A stretch of DNA of 64,000 nt from a virus (IMGVR_UViG_3300024323_000001:12-64011), one strand, 5' to 3'; positions 48,757-58,206 are shown, numbered from the stretch's first letter. The notes: generated by a model not told the origin, from the letters alone. Made by a program: numbers and translations.

Positions 48757-49455
48757 CTATATCTCCCCTGTCAGGATCCGCGCCAGCTCTATGCCCTCTT
48801 GGAATCTGGATTCGGCGTGCGCGGCGCGTTTCGGGTCATTCCCTTCATACTCGCCCACAAGCATATCCGCACGAACACCCCAAGCCAAATAAGGAGTGTA
48901 GTCATCCGGGACCGATAGGAACATTCCCGAGCCGTCCACTTGAGTTCCTTGGGCATTGGCGATGATCTCCATCTCTCCGGCGTCCGTGGGCGTTGGGTTC
49001 ACCGCGATCGTAAGCGACGGGAGATAATCCTCCATGTAAACCTCGGGACGTGTGGCGGTCTTCGTGGGCCATCCTGTGACACCGTGGTCTAGTTCCCAGC
49101 CAGTCGCGCGCGGAAGCTCTGTATAGGCCATCGGGTCCGTTTCGTTGGCCCATGCCACACGGCGAAGGTCGATGACGTTCTGCGGGATAGAGTAGCGGAA
49201 CTGGTTCGATTGGCCCGCTTGATAGGCCACCATGACCGAGACGCCGCTCTCGCTCAGGAATCTCCGCTGACGGTCATTCAGATATTGGATTACCTGGGCG
49301 GAGGTCCAGATTTTAGACTGATATGAGGCACCTTGCGTGTCAGGTTCGAGCAGAGAGAGTTGGACGGACGAGAGGATGGTCTGGTCGGTCACGTCGAACT
49401 GTGGAGCATCGCTATTGTAGGTGCCCCAACCGAATCGCCCTTGGCCCCAGCCCAT
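48757..49455 (-). CDS. Head-tail adaptor/ring protein
   Basis: WTSAQVIQYLND motif shared with 58203-58892; VPDDYTPYLAWG. Confidence 0.65.
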   Translation of the reverse strand: MGWGQGRFGWGTYNSDAPQFDVTDQTILSSVQLSLLEPDTQGASYQSKIWTSAQVIQYLNDRQRRFLSESGVSVMVAYQAGQSNQFRYSIPQNVIDLRRVAWANETDPMAYTELPRATGWELDHGVTGWPTKTATRPEVYMEDYLPSLTIAVNPTPTDAGEMEIIANAQGTQVDGSGMFLSVPDDYTPYLAWGVRADMLVGEYEGNDPKRAAHAESRFQEGIELARILTGEI

Positions 49456-56600: not shown

Positions 56601-58206
56601 GGAGTCCGCCAGCGCCGGGAGTCGGCAGCGCGAGATGGTCGCCCAAGAAGTAGCGGACGTTTCCGCCTGTCGCGGTAGTCGTAGAGATGCCAACGGCGGC
56701 GTTGACTCCGCTTACGTATGTGATATGCGTCCCATCAGGAACACTGGCGACGACTTTTACCCCGCCGAACTCCGCATCATCCGTGGTGCCATTGATGGTA
56801 ATTTCGCAACCTGGAGCTAGTTCTGCTGAACTGGCGATTGTAGCCGTAAAGGTATTGGCTACACCGGAAGCAATGCTGGTGATGGCCTGACTATGTGCTC
56901 CGGGCGTTGCGTTTCCTGTTGTCGTGGTTCCAGCAGAAGAAGCAGCGGTAAGTCCCTGCCCTACGTCGCGCATCGCAATTTGATAAGAGCGCGTTGTCGC
57001 ACCAGCACCAGCAGCAACTACGAATCCCGTGCCAAGCGGTCCAGCAGCGCAGACAGGCGTAACCGTTGGCGCAACCGGCGTGGTCATCGATTGCGAAGCG
57101 CCAGCGCCTACGATGGAAAATCCATCCCCAACTTGCAGGCCCGTGTTGGCGGAAACTACCGCTGAGTTGGTGCCGGATGAAATTGTTGCCGTTGGTGCAG
57201 GAGTAGCGGTGGGCGCTACTGCTCGGACGCCGAACTTCCGCATGTCCACGCTCGGATTTGGCCCGCGATTTATGTTGTCGTCGCTGTTCGTCAGTACGCC
57301 ACTGGATTCATTGAGATTTGTAGGTTGGCAAGCTCCTGCGGTCCCAGCGGCTTGGATATTTCCCTGACCGCCAGATGAGGAACAATTCCCACCGCCACCA
57401 CCTCCACCTGCGGGTTGAGTTAGTTGGCTCCAGTTCGTCCCATCGAAGCTGAATGTCTCATCCGTGCAGCCCGTCGTCTGAATCGCGGTCGTGTTGAGAA
57501 AGTTCGCAGGGAAGGCGAACGTCCATGGCGAACCTGCGCCTTGGCAGATATGGAGCTTCATCACGACGCCGTTCACGGGTGTCCCGCTCACGCTCGACGA
57601 CGTGACGTTTCCGGTGAGCGTGATTCCATAAGCAGCGTTGAGAGTCCCAGAGAATGACGGAGTCGCGCTGAACGCTACCGTCGAGAACGGCAAGGGAGCG
57701 CCTACACCTGCTCCTGCGCCATTGGAATTGACGTTAATCCACTTGCCGACAAGACCGTCCCACACCCACGTCGAAGCGGAACAGACGTTGGCGTTCGGCG
57801 AGACTGTCACAGGCGAGGGAGATTGGAAGTTGGAAGGGAACGCAAAGGTGAATCCGCCCGTGGCGTTCTGACAAGCAATCAGATAGAGGATCTGGCCGGA
57901 TTTGATTCCGGGCTGATTCACCGTGGACGAAGTGACGTTCCCACTCAGCGTGATGGCGAACGTGTTCCCTTTGGTCAGGTCGAATACGGGAGTGGCGCTG
58001 AACGGAACGGAGACGAACCCGCCGTGGAAGACGCCGATCGCCGCGTCGAGAGTATCGAAATCCTGGTTGATGTAGATTCCACCGTTCGTAGAACCTATTT
58101 TTGGCTTCTTTAGTCCAAGATTCGGCGTGGTCGTGAAATCGTTCTGGGCTCTCGCGCCAGCAGCCCACCCGAGCATCAGCAATAGAAGAATCGTCCGTCT
58201 CATCAT
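53632..58206 (-). CDS. Large tail fibre/spike-like protein with N-terminal signal peptide
   Basis: MMRRTILLLLMLGWAAGARA-Q then TTTPNLGLKKP...INQDFDTLD; duplicated domain; VDMRKFGV. Confidence 0.75.
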   Translation of the reverse strand: MMRRTILLLLMLGWAAGARAQNDFTTTPNLGLKKPKIGSTNGGIYINQDFDTLDAAIGVFHGGFVSVPFSATPVFDLTKGNTFAITLSGNVTSSTVNQPGIKSGQILYLIACQNATGGFTFAFPSNFQSPSPVTVSPNANVCSASTWVWDGLVGKWINVNSNGAGAGVGAPLPFSTVAFSATPSFSGTLNAAYGITLTGNVTSSSVSGTPVNGVVMKLHICQGAGSPWTFAFPANFLNTTAIQTTGCTDETFSFDGTNWSQLTQPAGGGGGGGNCSSSGGQGNIQAAGTAGACQPTNLNESSGVLTNSDDNINRGPNPSVDMRKFGVRAVAPTATPAPTATISSGTNSAVVSANTGLQVGDGFSIVGAGASQSMTTPVAPTVTPVCAAGPLGTGFVVAAGAGATTRSYQIAMRDVGQGLTAASSAGTTTTGNATPGAHSQAITSIASGVANTFTATIASSAELAPGCEITINGTTDDAEFGGVKVVASVPDGTHITYVSGVNAAVGISTTTATGGNVRYFLGDHLALPTPGAGGLQYEIYLGGTKVGESLIASLGYTDTTYNTWDYWGATISGGYPVSWWAPTTPPASPVNDTLVTTITNIAGTTLTLANNASTSVTTAQARFDNAPNIAACVSATNASAVTGAGGTCRFPVVVENNSTQVYCYEISTFLDLTGVNAIIQDGSVCLRDTLKFNGNWYGTDLSAKRMINASNGLRPHIPIFVFTANPGIWITNGSAGLNKVDVDVFGNGVVGVFNTSSHAAQIFEDDNFFSASPDDYMNVLFYDYQSSGAGAFGYKIRNSSFVANSVLNGGQAQVGQTTTPVFISKFNTLMNFDYISGTTRGIYIVPHISGLSGRFIGGEEWQGNITPLISFQPYYAGNTAGFFSIMDLYNDTGPAPMVAYIAAPAASLGATIQINGSDLPSSNAPLVSGSPFASLILQNISATNALQLGQNMNTTSIGQTNGSLPGIRTASLATAAVNYTGNHTLTKAEGAVNAQGTLTFTIDTTLGDGQMWDVYSETGTTTLTVSAGTLHGNAATGNITIPNNSGMHVFLKGGNAYAYGLGGGGGGGGCTPGGTTGATLYNGGGGTCAGVNSPIVNGNYNVHYRVTGSVAVNPAIDNPGVPINAQTGTTYTIGTANTDFDRGYLITANNAGAQTYTFVNPSTTGYGFNHFFVIKNIGTGTVTATASGFTINGATTLLIAPSWTVFFWSDGINYFASRLPDFTAFPNCIGGGNALQFTTATGVFSCGSSSAGVSSITGDGIIFNNSLSTGAVTLTLVSGGANKVLANCTGAPAAPTYCNITDAMLTAASHAALYNASNVWTGLQDFSGATVKVPTGAGFTTSATSMDGYDSTAKIRHIFTNNADALAMVTTATCTTTTNIAHATAVAGIYSCGAMVTADIPVQYTKSTCTEVWGGSGSSFALTAGDDAISNNTCYNDSGVTRTITAVKCLSDNGANTTTVNPTFGASGTGTTILSGALTCGNSNAMSSSGTVSNASWTTGTGINPVMGGTLTGTHIAMIVEYTF

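What the first reader, a model, noticed from the sequence alone, without database searches (positions are those of the whole stretch)
49455..58206. Tail fibre/spike-like genes with Sec signal peptides: possible periplasmic assembly route
Seen: three consecutive, translationally coupled genes in the tail operon begin with a basic-hydrophobic leader: MMRRTILLLLMLGWAAGARA-Q, MQLKAILCCLIFFLGSL (cleavage site less clear) and MKRLLLLLLFPAVLFA-Q. In the 1524-aa protein the predicted cleavage exposes TTTPNLGLKKP...INQDFDTLD, which resembles fibre N-terminal anchor segments. The proteins hold many closely spaced Cys pairs (SCNGGSGDC, CTTNC, CQNA...NVC). Known: tailed-phage virion proteins normally fold and assemble in the cytoplasm without signal peptides. 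Inference: these proteins are exported for disulfide-dependent folding and join the virion at or after lysis, or are secreted depolymerases or receptor blockers. No integrase is visible, which weakens a simple lysogenic-conversion explanation.
Basis: partly seen in the sequence, partly recalled or inferred. Interest (0 to 1): 0.85.

Follow-up and report, generated by a model that had tools for sequence, protein, structure and literature searches.

The report
Phage tail-fibre genes carrying export signals
A soil phage, and its cultured relatives that infect Acidobacteriota, put classic secretion leaders on their large fibre- and spike-like proteins, so these parts are probably folded outside the cytoplasm where the rest of the virus particle is built, which has not been described for tailed phages.

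Summary
The window is almost all of a 64-kb podophage genome distantly related to the Tunturiibacter (Acidobacteriota) phages. Three translationally coupled genes (1524, 247 and 1145 aa) start with Sec-type leaders. A fourth such gene (796 aa) lies after the portal gene.

- **Conservation:** the leaders persist in relatives even where the mature domains are unrelated. They occur in 11 of 11 fibre homologues that include the N-terminus, in 21 of 23 homologues of the 1145-aa protein, and in five consecutive tail-module proteins of cultured phage Tunturi_1.
- **Cysteine signature:** the mature proteins are about 5-fold richer in Cys than the other late proteins, and Cys counts are even in 32 of 33 proteins. 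This fits disulfide bonding.
- **The 1145-aa protein:** it folds as a lectin-like domain, a tailspike-type beta-helix and an Ig-like domain. Its cellular relatives are leader-bearing enzymes inside Acidobacteriota exopolysaccharide loci.
- **Position:** the cassette is an 8.7-kb insertion between the SU10-type adaptor gene and the nozzle genes.

Export is well supported. I could not decide whether the proteins then join the virion at lysis (my best guess, about 0.5) or act as free enzymes (about 0.3). Virion proteomics on the cultured Tunturi phages would settle it.

The parts
58203..58892 (-). 229-aa head-to-tail adaptor (SU10-adaptor family), no leader. This is the gene directly upstream of the cassette and is translationally coupled to it.
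   Evidence: 67 homologues were found, many with precomputed PF24175. Homologue P0229 scores E 7.6e-8 to PF24175 SU10_adaptor; the window protein itself is below threshold.
53632..58206 (-). 1524-aa fibre-like exported protein.
58147..58206 (-). Signal peptide of the 1524-aa protein (residues 1-20), with predicted cleavage ARA|Q.
   Evidence: A20 is invariant in the alignment of 11 N-terminal-type fibres. All 11 of 11 such homologues have a leader.
57373..58146 (-). Conserved N-terminal block (residues 21-278): the fibre N-motif TTTPNLGLKKPK...NQDFDTLD followed by two about 100-aa beta-sandwich domains with a Cys pair.
   Evidence: 99% identical to relative G001, against 77% for the remainder. 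The AF2 model has pLDDT 77. Foldseek matches CpaA repeats (E 1.5e-6) and CBA120 TSP4-N (E 2e-3).
53635..57372 (-). Variable shaft and distal part of the 1524-aa protein. It was not folded here.
   Evidence: Residues 235-1399 are 77% identical to G001. The last about 125 residues have no match in G001.
52889..53632 (-). 247-aa small protein with a hydrophobic N-terminal leader or anchor (residues 1-17, 53582-53632) and a jelly-roll-like body. It is swapped together with the fibre C-terminus.
49455..52892 (-). 1145-aa exported depolymerase-like protein.
52845..52892 (-). Signal peptide of the 1145-aa protein (residues 1-16), with predicted cleavage LFA|Q and a TTG start.
52023..52844 (-). Lectin/ConA-like jelly-roll domain (about residues 17-290). 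It is absent from the cellular homologues.
   Evidence: AF2 model. Foldseek matches only at fold level, to jelly-roll binding domains. The short cellular homologues begin at about residue 290.
50523..52010 (-). Right-handed beta-helix (about residues 295-790), the polysaccharide depolymerase core.
   Evidence: Foldseek matches LKA1 gp49 (E 3.6e-9), K1 capsule lyase, K64-1 S2-4, phi297 gp61, AP22 gp54, KP34p57, and also AlgE4 and RbmB.
49695..50045 (-). PapD/ASH-type Ig-like domain (about residues 950-1066).
   Evidence: Foldseek matches HYDIN and CEP192 PapD-like domains. Homologues carry precomputed PF22544 or PF15780.
49458..49670 (-). Cys-rich C-terminal tail (about residues 1075-1145). It is identical in relative G001, although the rest of the protein is only 41% identical.
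   Evidence: It is unmodelled, with pLDDT below 50.
48757..49455 (-). 232-aa structural protein, no leader. In distant relatives it lies directly after the adaptor gene.
   Evidence: phrog_399, E 1.9e-9; synteny.
45720..48755 (-). 1011-aa nozzle-like virion protein, no leader (context).
   Evidence: phrog_3287, E 7e-6; conserved after the 232-aa homologue in relatives.
890..3280 (-). Fourth leader-bearing, Cys-rich, hypervariable protein (796 aa; MRLRFLITALIATICTLPARA|Q), lying between the portal and scaffold genes across the circular junction.
   Evidence: Atlas leads to SGNH/GDSL plus LamG viral clusters score below 0.9, so they are leads only.

Best explanation
The three genes form a swappable host-recognition cassette of a podophage whose host is most likely an Acidobacteriota bacterium. 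The products are made late, together with the virion proteins, but are sent through the host Sec translocon.

Shown:
- Each protein has a Sec-type leader that is kept whatever the cargo.
- The mature parts carry the Cys signature of disulfide-bonded proteins.
- The 1524-aa protein has a strongly conserved N-terminal fibre module and a variable distal part.
- The 1145-aa protein is a lectin-like domain, a tailspike-type beta-helix and an Ig-like domain.
- The helix core is related to leader-bearing enzymes encoded inside host exopolysaccharide loci.
- The cassette is inserted between the adaptor gene and the 232-aa and nozzle genes.

Inferred:
- Signal peptidase I cuts at A|Q, exposing the fibre N-motif at the new N-terminus, where leaderless homologues have it.
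- The proteins fold and oxidise in the periplasm.
- The 247-aa protein, which is exchanged together with the fibre tip, acts there as its partner or chaperone.
- When the holin opens the inner membrane, the periplasmic fibres and depolymerase meet particles built in the cytoplasm and dock onto the tail, giving infectious virions. Any unbound enzyme also loosens the surrounding exopolysaccharide.
For: Leaders and coupling.

Leaders are kept while the cargo changes:
- Relative G001 has gene-2 and gene-3 leaders on diverged or unrelated mature sequences.
- A third phage, L015, has adaptor, then a 1522-aa, a 441-aa and a >1536-aa protein, all with leaders, and genes 2 and 3 are unrelated to ours.
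- 11 of 11 N-terminal-type fibre homologues have leaders, and the -1 Ala is invariant.
- 21 of 23 homologues of the 1145-aa protein have leaders.

Cultured phages:
- Tunturi_1 gp12, 13, 14, 16 and 17 have leaders. That is 5 of 24 CDS examined, and all five are consecutive large tail-module proteins.
- Tunturi_4 gp113 has a leader.

Disulfide signature:
- Cys is 2.03% against 0.43% in the window, p = 6e-13. Cys counts are even in 4 of 4, 18 of 19 and 10 of 10 proteins.
- Tunturi_1 shows 2.07% against 0.48%, p = 2e-13.
- The domain Cys pair occurs in 75 of 81 leader-bearing homologues against 45 of 70 others, p = 2e-5.

Evidence pointing to the virion:
- The fibre N-terminus is 99% conserved against 77% for the rest, flanked by virion genes that are 94-98% identical.
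- The four leader-bearing genes are the most divergent late genes between the two phages.
- The same domains occur without leaders in fibre-position genes of other phages: Tunturi_4 gp112 and the L026 747-aa protein.
- The fibre domain fold matches the N-terminal assembly region of CBA120 TSP4 (PMC8825819, passages read).
- The fibre N-domain was found in 0 of 301 Acidobacteriota genomes, so it is not a common cellular adhesin.
- About 11 kb (17%) of the genome encodes these four proteins.
- No promoter- or terminator-like sites above chance flank the cassette.
Against: - Nothing here shows that any of these proteins is in a virion. The Tunturi paper reports no proteomics and never mentions signal peptides (passages only, supplements closed).
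- The cellular relatives of the beta-helix are EPS-locus enzymes that presumably work as free periplasmic or secreted proteins.
- The fibre domain fold is also that of the glycan-binding repeats of the secreted protease CpaA, which is the better Foldseek match.
- The 1145-aa protein has no recognisable N-terminal particle-binding domain.
- Distant relatives build the same adaptor-nozzle tail without this cassette, so it is accessory.
- Attachment of exported proteins to particles made in the cytoplasm has no precedent that I could find.
- The leaders were scored with my own heuristic, not with SignalP.
- The host is inferred, not known.
Confidence: 0.5

Rival explanations
1. The proteins are exported but never join the virion. 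They are phage-encoded periplasmic or extracellular glycan-binding and glycan-degrading proteins. They cut or mask the host's exopolysaccharide from within late in infection, so that progeny escape the matrix, are not trapped on debris, or so that superinfection is blocked. The real receptor-binding parts of the virion would be the leaderless 416-, 182- and 1011-aa proteins.
For: - The leaders and the disulfide signature support this reading equally.
- The beta-helix core is related to leader-bearing enzymes inside EPS loci that hold Wzx, Wzy, glycosyltransferases, UDP-glucose dehydrogenase, MBOAT and a deacetylase.
- Known analogues are free enzymes: WceF (PMC7949094, passages read) and RbmB.
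- The fibre domains resemble the glycan-binding repeats of secreted CpaA.
- The cassette is absent from distant relatives with the same tail core.
- Leaderless candidate fibres exist upstream of the adaptor.
Against: - It devotes 17% of a lytic-type genome to non-virion proteins.
- The fibre-like architecture has an N-terminus more conserved (99%) than any neighbouring virion gene.
- The genes are translationally coupled inside the virion operon, with no regulatory signals of their own.
- Homologous domains occur in leaderless proteins at fibre positions.
- In Tunturi_1 all large spike-like proteins carry leaders, which would leave that podophage with very little to serve as appendages.
Confidence: 0.32
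2. The leaders, at least that of the 247-aa protein, are uncleaved signal-anchors. The proteins stay tethered to the periplasmic face of the inner membrane and are released only when the holin collapses the membrane potential, as happens with signal-anchor-release endolysins.
For: - The 247-aa leader lacks a canonical -3/-1 site, and so does its G001 counterpart.
- Phages are known to use releasable signal-anchors for endolysins (PMC6116005, passages read).
Against: - The 1524- and 1145-aa leaders are Leu-rich with clear AxA-type sites and an invariant -1 Ala, unlike the weakly hydrophobic Gly/Ala/Ser-rich SAR segments (recalled).
- The L015 gene-2 leader has a canonical AFA|Q site.
Confidence: 0.08
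3. The hydrophobic N-termini are not used for export. Either the true starts lie downstream, or the segments serve another purpose, and the proteins assemble on the virion in the cytoplasm as in other tailed phages.
For: - The 247-aa gene has in-frame TTG and GTG codons after the hydrophobic segment.
- The 1145-aa gene uses a TTG start.
- No SignalP run was possible.
Against: - No start codon exists between the h-region and the conserved N-motif of the 1524-aa protein.
- The relative has ATG at the gene-3 start.
- Leaders are conserved across homologues down to 26% identity for the fibres (A2) and 28% for the beta-helix family (A1).
- Cellular homologues have leaders too.
- Cys counts are even in 32 of 33 proteins, and Cys is enriched 5-fold.
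- Q follows the predicted site in 56 of 81 and in 17 of 21 proteins.
Confidence: 0.05

Closest known systems
Phage tailspike depolymerases (LKA1 gp49, Klebsiella K1 capsule lyase, K64-1 S2-4, phi297 gp61, AP22 gp54, KP34p57)
   Same: The right-handed beta-helix fold of the 1145-aa protein is the best PDB match (Foldseek E 3.6e-9 to 7e-8). The gene lies in the tail module and varies strongly between close phages.
   Different: - As far as I recall, those proteins have no signal peptide and fold in the cytoplasm.
- They carry N-terminal particle-binding domains, which I did not find here.
- Sequence identity is 9-13%.
- The protein here is Cys-rich (32 Cys).
WceF of Pantoea stewartii and similar EPS-locus glycanases (RbmB, AlgE-type)
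   Same: WceF is an exported, tailspike-like beta-helix enzyme encoded in an exopolysaccharide locus (PMC7949094, passages read). The about 700-aa cellular homologues of the 1145-aa protein are leader-bearing and lie in EPS loci.
   Different: - WceF uses a Tat leader and is cellular.
- I did not test sequence relatedness to WceF.
- The phage protein has an added lectin-like N-domain, an Ig-like domain and a C-terminal tail, and it lies in a virion operon.
Sec-exported phage endolysins (fOg44 Lys44) and signal-anchor-release endolysins
   Same: These are phage late proteins that use the host Sec system and wait outside the cytoplasm until lysis (PMC6116005, passages read).
   Different: They are small peptidoglycan hydrolases, not fibres or spikes. 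No muramidase or amidase family was detected in the three proteins.
N-terminal assembly region of CBA120 TSP4, and T4 gp9/gp10 XD domains
   Same: The beta-sandwich fold of the two conserved N-terminal fibre domains matches (Foldseek E 2e-3, probability 1.0). PMC8825819 (passages read) describes this fold in proteins that anchor and branch tailspike complexes.
   Different: - Those proteins have no leader.
- The best structural match here is the secreted protease CpaA, not the phage proteins.
- The trimeric state was not modelled.
Signal-peptide genes of Porphyromonas gingivalis prophages that follow the Bacteroidetes Q-rule
   Same: Phage genes carry host-type SPase I leaders that expose an N-terminal Gln (PMC10367356, passages read). 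Here Q follows the predicted site in 3 of the 4 window proteins and in most homologues.
   Different: Those are genes of unknown function in temperate phages, read as modifiers of the host surface and not as tail fibres. The host phylum differs.
Receptor-blocking lipoproteins encoded near tail genes (T5 Llp, phi80 Cor; recalled, not checked here)
   Same: They are exported phage proteins linked to the receptor-recognition genes.
   Different: They are small lipoproteins. None of the three proteins here has a lipobox.

Membership tests
Sec/SPase I signal peptide | Basic n-region, uncharged hydrophobic h-region of about 10-15 residues, small residues at -3 and -1 | tested here: met
   Met for the 1524-aa (ARA|Q), 1145-aa (LFA|Q) and 796-aa (ARA|Q) proteins by my heuristic. 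For the 247-aa protein the n- and h-regions are met but the cleavage site is not canonical.
Sec/SPase I signal peptide | Conserved as a feature, not as a sequence, among homologues | tested here: met
   11 of 11 N-type fibres, 21 of 23 of the beta-helix family, and 3 of 3 cassette genes in L015. The -1 Ala is invariant.
Sec/SPase I signal peptide | Prediction by a trained predictor (SignalP 6), and experimental cleavage or export | not testable with these tools
   No SignalP and no experiments were available.
Tat signal peptide | Conserved twin-arginine motif, with a longer and less hydrophobic h-region | tested here: not met
   RR occurs in the 1524-aa leader, but homologues have KR, KK or a single R. 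The leaders are 16-20 residues long and Leu-rich.
Lipoprotein (SPase II) signal | Lipobox L-[AS]-[GA]-C at the end of the h-region | tested here: not met
   No lipobox in any of the three. The CC in the 247-aa leader follows only 7 residues and is not in a lipobox context.
Tailspike or depolymerase beta-helix proteins | Right-handed parallel beta-helix fold | tested here: met
   The AF2 model has pLDDT 80-94 over most of residues 320-640. The top Foldseek matches are phage tailspikes.
Tailspike or depolymerase beta-helix proteins | N-terminal particle-binding domain, and presence in the virion | tested here: inconclusive
   The N-domain of the 1145-aa protein is a lectin-like jelly roll that varies between close phages. 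Presence in the virion cannot be tested here.
Tailspike or depolymerase beta-helix proteins | Trimer, and catalytic acidic residues in a groove | not tested
   No trimer was modelled and no active site was mapped.
Phage tail fibre | Conserved N-terminal attachment part, variable distal part, and a cognate small downstream gene | tested here: met
   Residues 1-278 are 99% identical, the remainder 77%, and the C-terminus and the 247-aa gene are replaced in G001.
Phage tail fibre | Homology to proteins annotated or shown as tail parts | tested here: inconclusive
   The only match is Tunturi_4 gp112, labelled 'tail assembly protein' by structure-based annotation (34% identity, E 8e-6). There are no Pfam, PHROG or PDB sequence matches.
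EPS-locus periplasmic glycanases (WceF-like) | Encoded inside a polysaccharide biosynthesis locus | tested here: not met
   Met for the cellular homologues, in 2 of 2 loci examined. Not met for the phage gene, which lies between the adaptor and nozzle genes.
SU10-type adaptor (the 229-aa neighbour) | Match to PF24175 | tested here: inconclusive
   The window protein gives no hit at E<=1. Its homologue P0229 (39% identity) scores E 7.6e-8, above the cut-off. Many homologues carry the precomputed family.

The most novel reading that the evidence does not exclude
A whole group of Acidobacteriota phages, including cultured Tunturi 1, 2 and 4, builds its virions in two compartments. Heads and tail cores assemble in the cytoplasm. 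The fibres and depolymerase spikes are exported by Sec, trimmed by signal peptidase to an N-terminal Gln, and disulfide-bonded in the periplasm. They are attached only when the holin breaches the inner membrane. The leader-coding stretches double as conserved recombination joints that let any exported host enzyme, such as an EPS-locus glycanase, be recruited as a new spike.
Probability: 0.45. Interest if true: 0.92.

Novelty: new variant of a known kind. Interest (0 to 1): 0.8.

Why it matters
- **Textbook assembly:** tailed-phage virions are taught as purely cytoplasmic assemblies. If these proteins are virion parts, an export-dependent last step with oxidative folding is a new assembly route, and it is directly testable in three cultured phage-host pairs.
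- **If they are free enzymes:** a lytic phage would be spending about a sixth of its genome on exported matrix-degrading proteins, which bears on how phages move through exopolysaccharide-rich soil biofilms.
- **Annotation:** pipelines that treat a signal peptide as evidence against a structural role, or that set tail proteins aside when counting secreted phage enzymes (as in PMC13507307, passages read), would misfile these genes.
- **Origin of spikes:** the link between a phage spike core and host EPS-locus enzymes shows a concrete source for new depolymerases.

Tried and rejected
- **Complex prediction:** the 229-aa adaptor was tested against fibre residues 21-165 (own alignments A3 and A2). 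The verdict was 'no answer', score 0.00, and controls were not run. This counts neither way.
- **Searches that found nothing:**
  - Megablast of the cassette against phage records: no match.
  - tblastn of the 1145-aa protein against phage records: no match.
  - Pfam on the three proteins and five neighbours: 0 families.
  - PDB sequence searches with the 229-, 232-, 1011- and 1524-aa proteins: nothing meaningful.
  - PHROGs on small ORFs after the internal-protein genes: no named lysis gene found, so the lysis system is not identified.
- **Paralogy of the 229- and 232-aa proteins:** suspected from a shared short motif, but BLASTP gives E 0.12, so I do not claim it.
- **A corrected recollection:** I first recalled PDB 6o38 as a phage fibre-chaperone complex. 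Checking showed it is the secreted protease CpaA with its chaperone.
- **Tat and lipoprotein readings:** rejected (see the membership rows).
- **Cellular adhesin reading of the fibre:** the N-domain was not found in the 301 Acidobacteriota genomes searched at E<=1e-5 with one 160-aa query. This is a weak negative.
- **Prophage or lysogenic-conversion reading:**
  - The record is a stand-alone 64,011-bp contig.
  - Its relative has direct terminal repeats.
  - The phage encodes its own family-A DNA polymerase and a helicase.
  - No integrase family appeared among the 28 proteins scanned. Not every ORF was scanned.
- **Literature:** five searches found no report of signal peptides on tail fibres or spikes of tailed phages. 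The library lacks most subscription journals, and supplements were closed.

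
Full report
**What the window is.** The window is all but 11 bases of a single 64,011-bp contig classed as a virus record.
- Its capsid protein (61784-62878, minus strand) matches the major head proteins of the Tunturiibacter podophages Tunturi_1 and Tunturi_2 at 27% identity (E 2e-19). 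It matches Myxococcus phage Mx8 more weakly.
- The Tunturi phages were isolated on Acidobacteriota from Arctic soil. They are podoviruses of 63 kb with no tRNA genes (PMC11924767, abstract and passages). The window also has no tRNA gene.
- An IMG/VR contig of 64,609 bp with direct terminal repeats (G001) is a close relative. A 64,035-bp contig (L015) is a more distant one.
- The phage encodes a family-A DNA polymerase fused to a uracil-DNA glycosylase domain, and a PIF1-type helicase. No integrase family appeared among the 28 proteins I scanned.

**The observation.** On the minus strand the late operon runs as follows:
- portal (3869-5785)
- a 796-aa protein (890-3280)
- then, across the circular junction, scaffold, capsid, and 179-, 416- and 182-aa proteins
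- a 229-aa adaptor
- the 1524-, 247- and 1145-aa proteins of the finding
- a 232-aa structural protein and a 1011-aa nozzle-like protein
- an acetyltransferase
- large Cys-free proteins that look like internal proteins

Each junction around the three genes is a stop/start overlap. The 1524- and 1145-aa proteins begin with textbook Sec leaders. The 247-aa protein begins with a basic residue and 13 hydrophobic residues but has no canonical cleavage site.

For the 1524-aa protein no alternative start exists between the leader and the conserved mature N-terminus. The TTG start of the 1145-aa gene is ATG at the same overlap in G001.

With the strict cut-offs applied to the output, my heuristic flags 5 of 39 window genes. 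These are the three genes, the 796-aa gene and a 185-aa protein with a twin-arginine and lipobox-like N-terminus. One search's looser flag marks one more, weakly (6807-7685). It flags 0 of 12 structural-module proteins of Mx8.

**Are the leaders selected?** Yes, on three lines of evidence.
- *Same positions, different cargo.* In G001 the gene-2 product has no detectable similarity to ours, and the gene-3 product is 41% identical, yet both start with leaders. In L015 the adaptor is followed by 1522-, 441- and >1536-aa proteins. All three have leaders with A|Q sites, and genes 2 and 3 are unrelated to ours. The gene-3 leader itself (MKRLLLLL..P.GL.A|Q) is similar across these phages whatever follows it.
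- *Distant homologues.* An exhaustive search with residues 1-300 of the fibre found 1000 proteins at E<=1e-3. All 11 whose match reaches the N-terminus carry a leader followed by QNDY/QDY-T-x-T-P-N-L. The -1 Ala is invariant. Of the 23 homologues of the 1145-aa protein, 21 pass the leader test. One of the other two has a leader after a probably mis-called start, and the other looks truncated.
- *Cultured phages.* In Tunturi_1, gp12 (1190 aa), gp13 (675 aa), gp14 ('tail spike', 919 aa), gp16 (149 aa) and gp17 ('virion structural protein', 1184 aa) all have leaders. That is 5 of 24 CDS examined, and they are consecutive. gp13 continues after the site with the same fibre N-motif. In the siphophage Tunturi_4, gp113 ('tail protein') has a leader, while gp112 is the fibre N-module without one and starts directly at MPTTTPNYGL. 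The paper on these phages does not mention signal peptides and reports no proteomics.

**A disulfide signature.**
- Mature parts of the four leader-bearing window proteins hold 74 Cys in 3639 residues (2.03%). Fourteen other late proteins hold 23 in 5377 (0.43%), p = 6e-13. Nine of those fourteen have no Cys at all.
- Tunturi_1 shows the same contrast (2.07% against 0.48%, p = 2e-13).
- Mature Cys counts are even in 4 of 4 window proteins, 18 of 19 beta-helix homologues and 10 of 10 fibre homologues. They are also even in 4 of 5 Tunturi_1 cassette proteins.
- Within the about 100-aa fibre domain, a Cys pair (C112/C142 of the 1524-aa protein) is present in 75 of 81 leader-bearing representatives and in 45 of 70 others (p = 2e-5). 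The 'others' include fragments and probable missed leaders. The small leaderless homologues (gp112, P0074, P0078, P0125) lack the pair.
- The predicted cleavage site is followed by Gln in 56 of 81 and in 17 of 21 leader-bearing proteins, against a 5.8% background.

**What the proteins are.**
- *The 1145-aa protein.* The model has mean pLDDT 68.6 and is high in the helix. It shows the leader, a lectin-like jelly roll (about 17-290), a right-handed beta-helix (about 295-790), a PapD/ASH-type Ig domain (about 950-1066) and an unmodelled Cys-rich tail. The helix matches phage tailspike depolymerases best (LKA1 gp49, E 3.6e-9). It also matches bacterial matrix enzymes such as AlgE4 and RbmB.
- *Its cellular relatives.* Homologues come in a long, phage-type form (1056-1151 aa, on contigs of 50-65 kb) and a short form (about 690-720 aa) that starts, after its own leader, at our residue about 290. 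The short form was found in 8 genome contigs. Seven are from Acidobacteriota MAGs and one is from a Dormibacterota MAG. It was found in 7 of 301 sampled Acidobacteriota genomes. In both loci I examined, on contigs above 1 Mb, it sits among Wzx, Wzy, glycosyltransferases, UDP-glucose dehydrogenase, MBOAT, a polysaccharide deacetylase and asparagine-synthase-like genes. This is the situation of WceF, an exported tailspike-like enzyme of the stewartan locus (PMC7949094, passages).
- *The fibre N-terminus.* The model of residues 21-300 has pLDDT 77. It shows a helix and two beta-sandwiches. These match the repeats of the secreted protease CpaA (E 1.5e-6) and the N-terminal assembly region of CBA120 TSP4 (E 2e-3). 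PMC8825819 (passages) places this fold in T4 gp9/gp10 and TSP4 as well as in CpaA and StcE, so the fold does not decide the question. The remainder of the fibre was not folded.
- *The 247-aa protein.* It resembles only viral hypothetical clusters and a jelly-roll domain of exported bacterial proteins.

**Where the cassette sits.** The 229-aa protein belongs to the SU10-adaptor family.
- In 10 of 11 more distant loci found with the adaptor alignment (33-40% identity), the adaptor is followed at once by the homologue of the 232-aa protein. The nozzle homologue follows, except in one locus (L028) that ends before it.
- In the eleventh locus, and in Tunturi_1 gp30, the order is 232-like then adaptor-like.
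- None of the 11 has a leader-bearing gene between them.
- The 8.7-kb cassette is therefore an insertion in the G000/G001/L015 lineage.
- Between G000 and G001 the flanking late proteins are 94-98% identical and fibre residues 1-278 are 99% identical. Fibre residues 235-1399 are 77% identical. The fibre C-terminus and the 247-aa protein are replaced. The 1145-aa protein is 41% identical except for an identical last about 70 residues. The 796-aa protein is 38% identical after an identical leader and first about 38 residues.
- The four leader-bearing genes are thus the fast-changing, modular genes of this phage, as receptor-recognition genes usually are.

**How it most likely works.**
- *Export (about 0.9).* I take export, signal-peptidase cleavage and disulfide formation as well supported, though not shown.
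- *Fate.* I favour attachment to the particle at lysis (about 0.5 overall). The reasons are:
  - the fibre architecture and its extreme N-terminal conservation;
  - the coupling inside the virion operon;
  - the same modules appearing without leaders in fibre-position genes elsewhere (Tunturi_4 gp112; the L026 747-aa protein);
  - the share of the genome invested;
  - the lack of other large appendage candidates in Tunturi_1.
- *Feasibility (recalled knowledge).* P22 tailspikes and T4 fibres attach to finished particles in vitro, so a last step after the holin opens the membrane is physically plausible.
- *Main rival (about 0.3).* The proteins stay free and act on the exopolysaccharide from the periplasm or after release. 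The EPS-locus ancestry of the helix, the CpaA-like domains and the accessory nature of the cassette all fit this.
- *Lesser rivals.* An anchor-and-release variant (about 0.08) and no export at all (about 0.05).

**Known or new.** Phages are known to export endolysins by Sec (PMC6116005, passages). They are also known to encode small exported receptor blockers (recalled). P. gingivalis prophages carry leader-bearing genes of unknown function that follow the host's Gln rule (PMC10367356, passages). Five literature searches found no report of leaders on tail fibres or spikes of tailed phages, within the limits of the library. I rate this a new variant of a known kind. It would become a new assembly route if the virion link is shown.

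Noticed in passing
window 890-3280 (-): A fourth leader-bearing protein (796 aa, ARA|Q, 16 Cys in the mature part) lies between the portal and scaffold genes. It is only 38% identical to its G001 counterpart, except for an identical leader and first about 38 residues. Atlas leads point to SGNH/GDSL esterase plus LamG viral clusters, with scores below 0.9.
   Followed up: partly
window 35620-36177 (+): A 185-aa protein has a twin-arginine-like start (SRRQF) and a lipobox-like LEGC. It is a candidate Tat-exported lipoprotein on the opposite strand from the late operon. Downstream lie a 240-aa protein (phrog_19005, unknown function) and a 141-aa protein.
   Followed up: partly
proteins P0004-P0026 and P0030-P0179; Tunturi_1 L002:10371-23028: The predicted signal-peptidase sites are followed by Gln in 56 of 81 and in 17 of 21 leader-bearing proteins (background Q 5.8%). 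This includes the cell-encoded enzymes. The bias resembles the 'Q-rule', which has been described as specific to Bacteroidetes, and the source paper does not mention Acidobacteria.
   Followed up: partly
L011:10001-12151 and L012:9905-12172: Leader-bearing beta-helix enzymes of about 700 aa, related to the phage protein, sit inside Acidobacteriota exopolysaccharide loci next to Wzx, Wzy, glycosyltransferases, MBOAT and deacetylase genes. One of the 8 genome hits is in a Dormibacterota MAG.
   Followed up: partly
L002:26734-28077 (Tunturi_1 gp30); L033:9332-10339: Homologues of the 232-aa protein and of the adaptor appear fused or adjacent in the reverse order (232-like, then adaptor-like). Elsewhere the order is adaptor first.
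   Followed up: no
L015:8068 and window 52845-52892: The gene-3 leader sequence (MKRLLLLL..P.GL.A|Q) is similar in phages whose mature gene-3 proteins are unrelated. The leader-coding stretch may act as a recombination joint for swapping cargo.
   Followed up: no
window 37407-38168 (-): A GIY-YIG homing endonuclease gene (phrog_314, E 4e-29) has much lower third-position GC (0.39) than its neighbours. It lies among small ORFs at the end of the late operon, where a lysis cassette would be expected.
   Followed up: partly
window 39860-40315 (-): The ORF after the internal-protein genes contains, from an internal Met, two hydrophobic segments that look holin-like. No PHROG match. The endolysin was not identified.
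   Followed up: partly
window 26205-28955 (+): A single 916-aa ORF combines a uracil-DNA-glycosylase-superfamily domain (residues 38-187) with a family-A DNA polymerase domain (residues 508-878).
   Followed up: no
L026:5952-8195: In a relative with a 63%-identical capsid protein, a leaderless 747-aa protein upstream of the adaptor combines the N-domain of the window's 182-aa protein with the fibre beta-sandwich domain. It is still Cys-rich (2.3%), an exception to the link between leaders and Cys.
   Followed up: no
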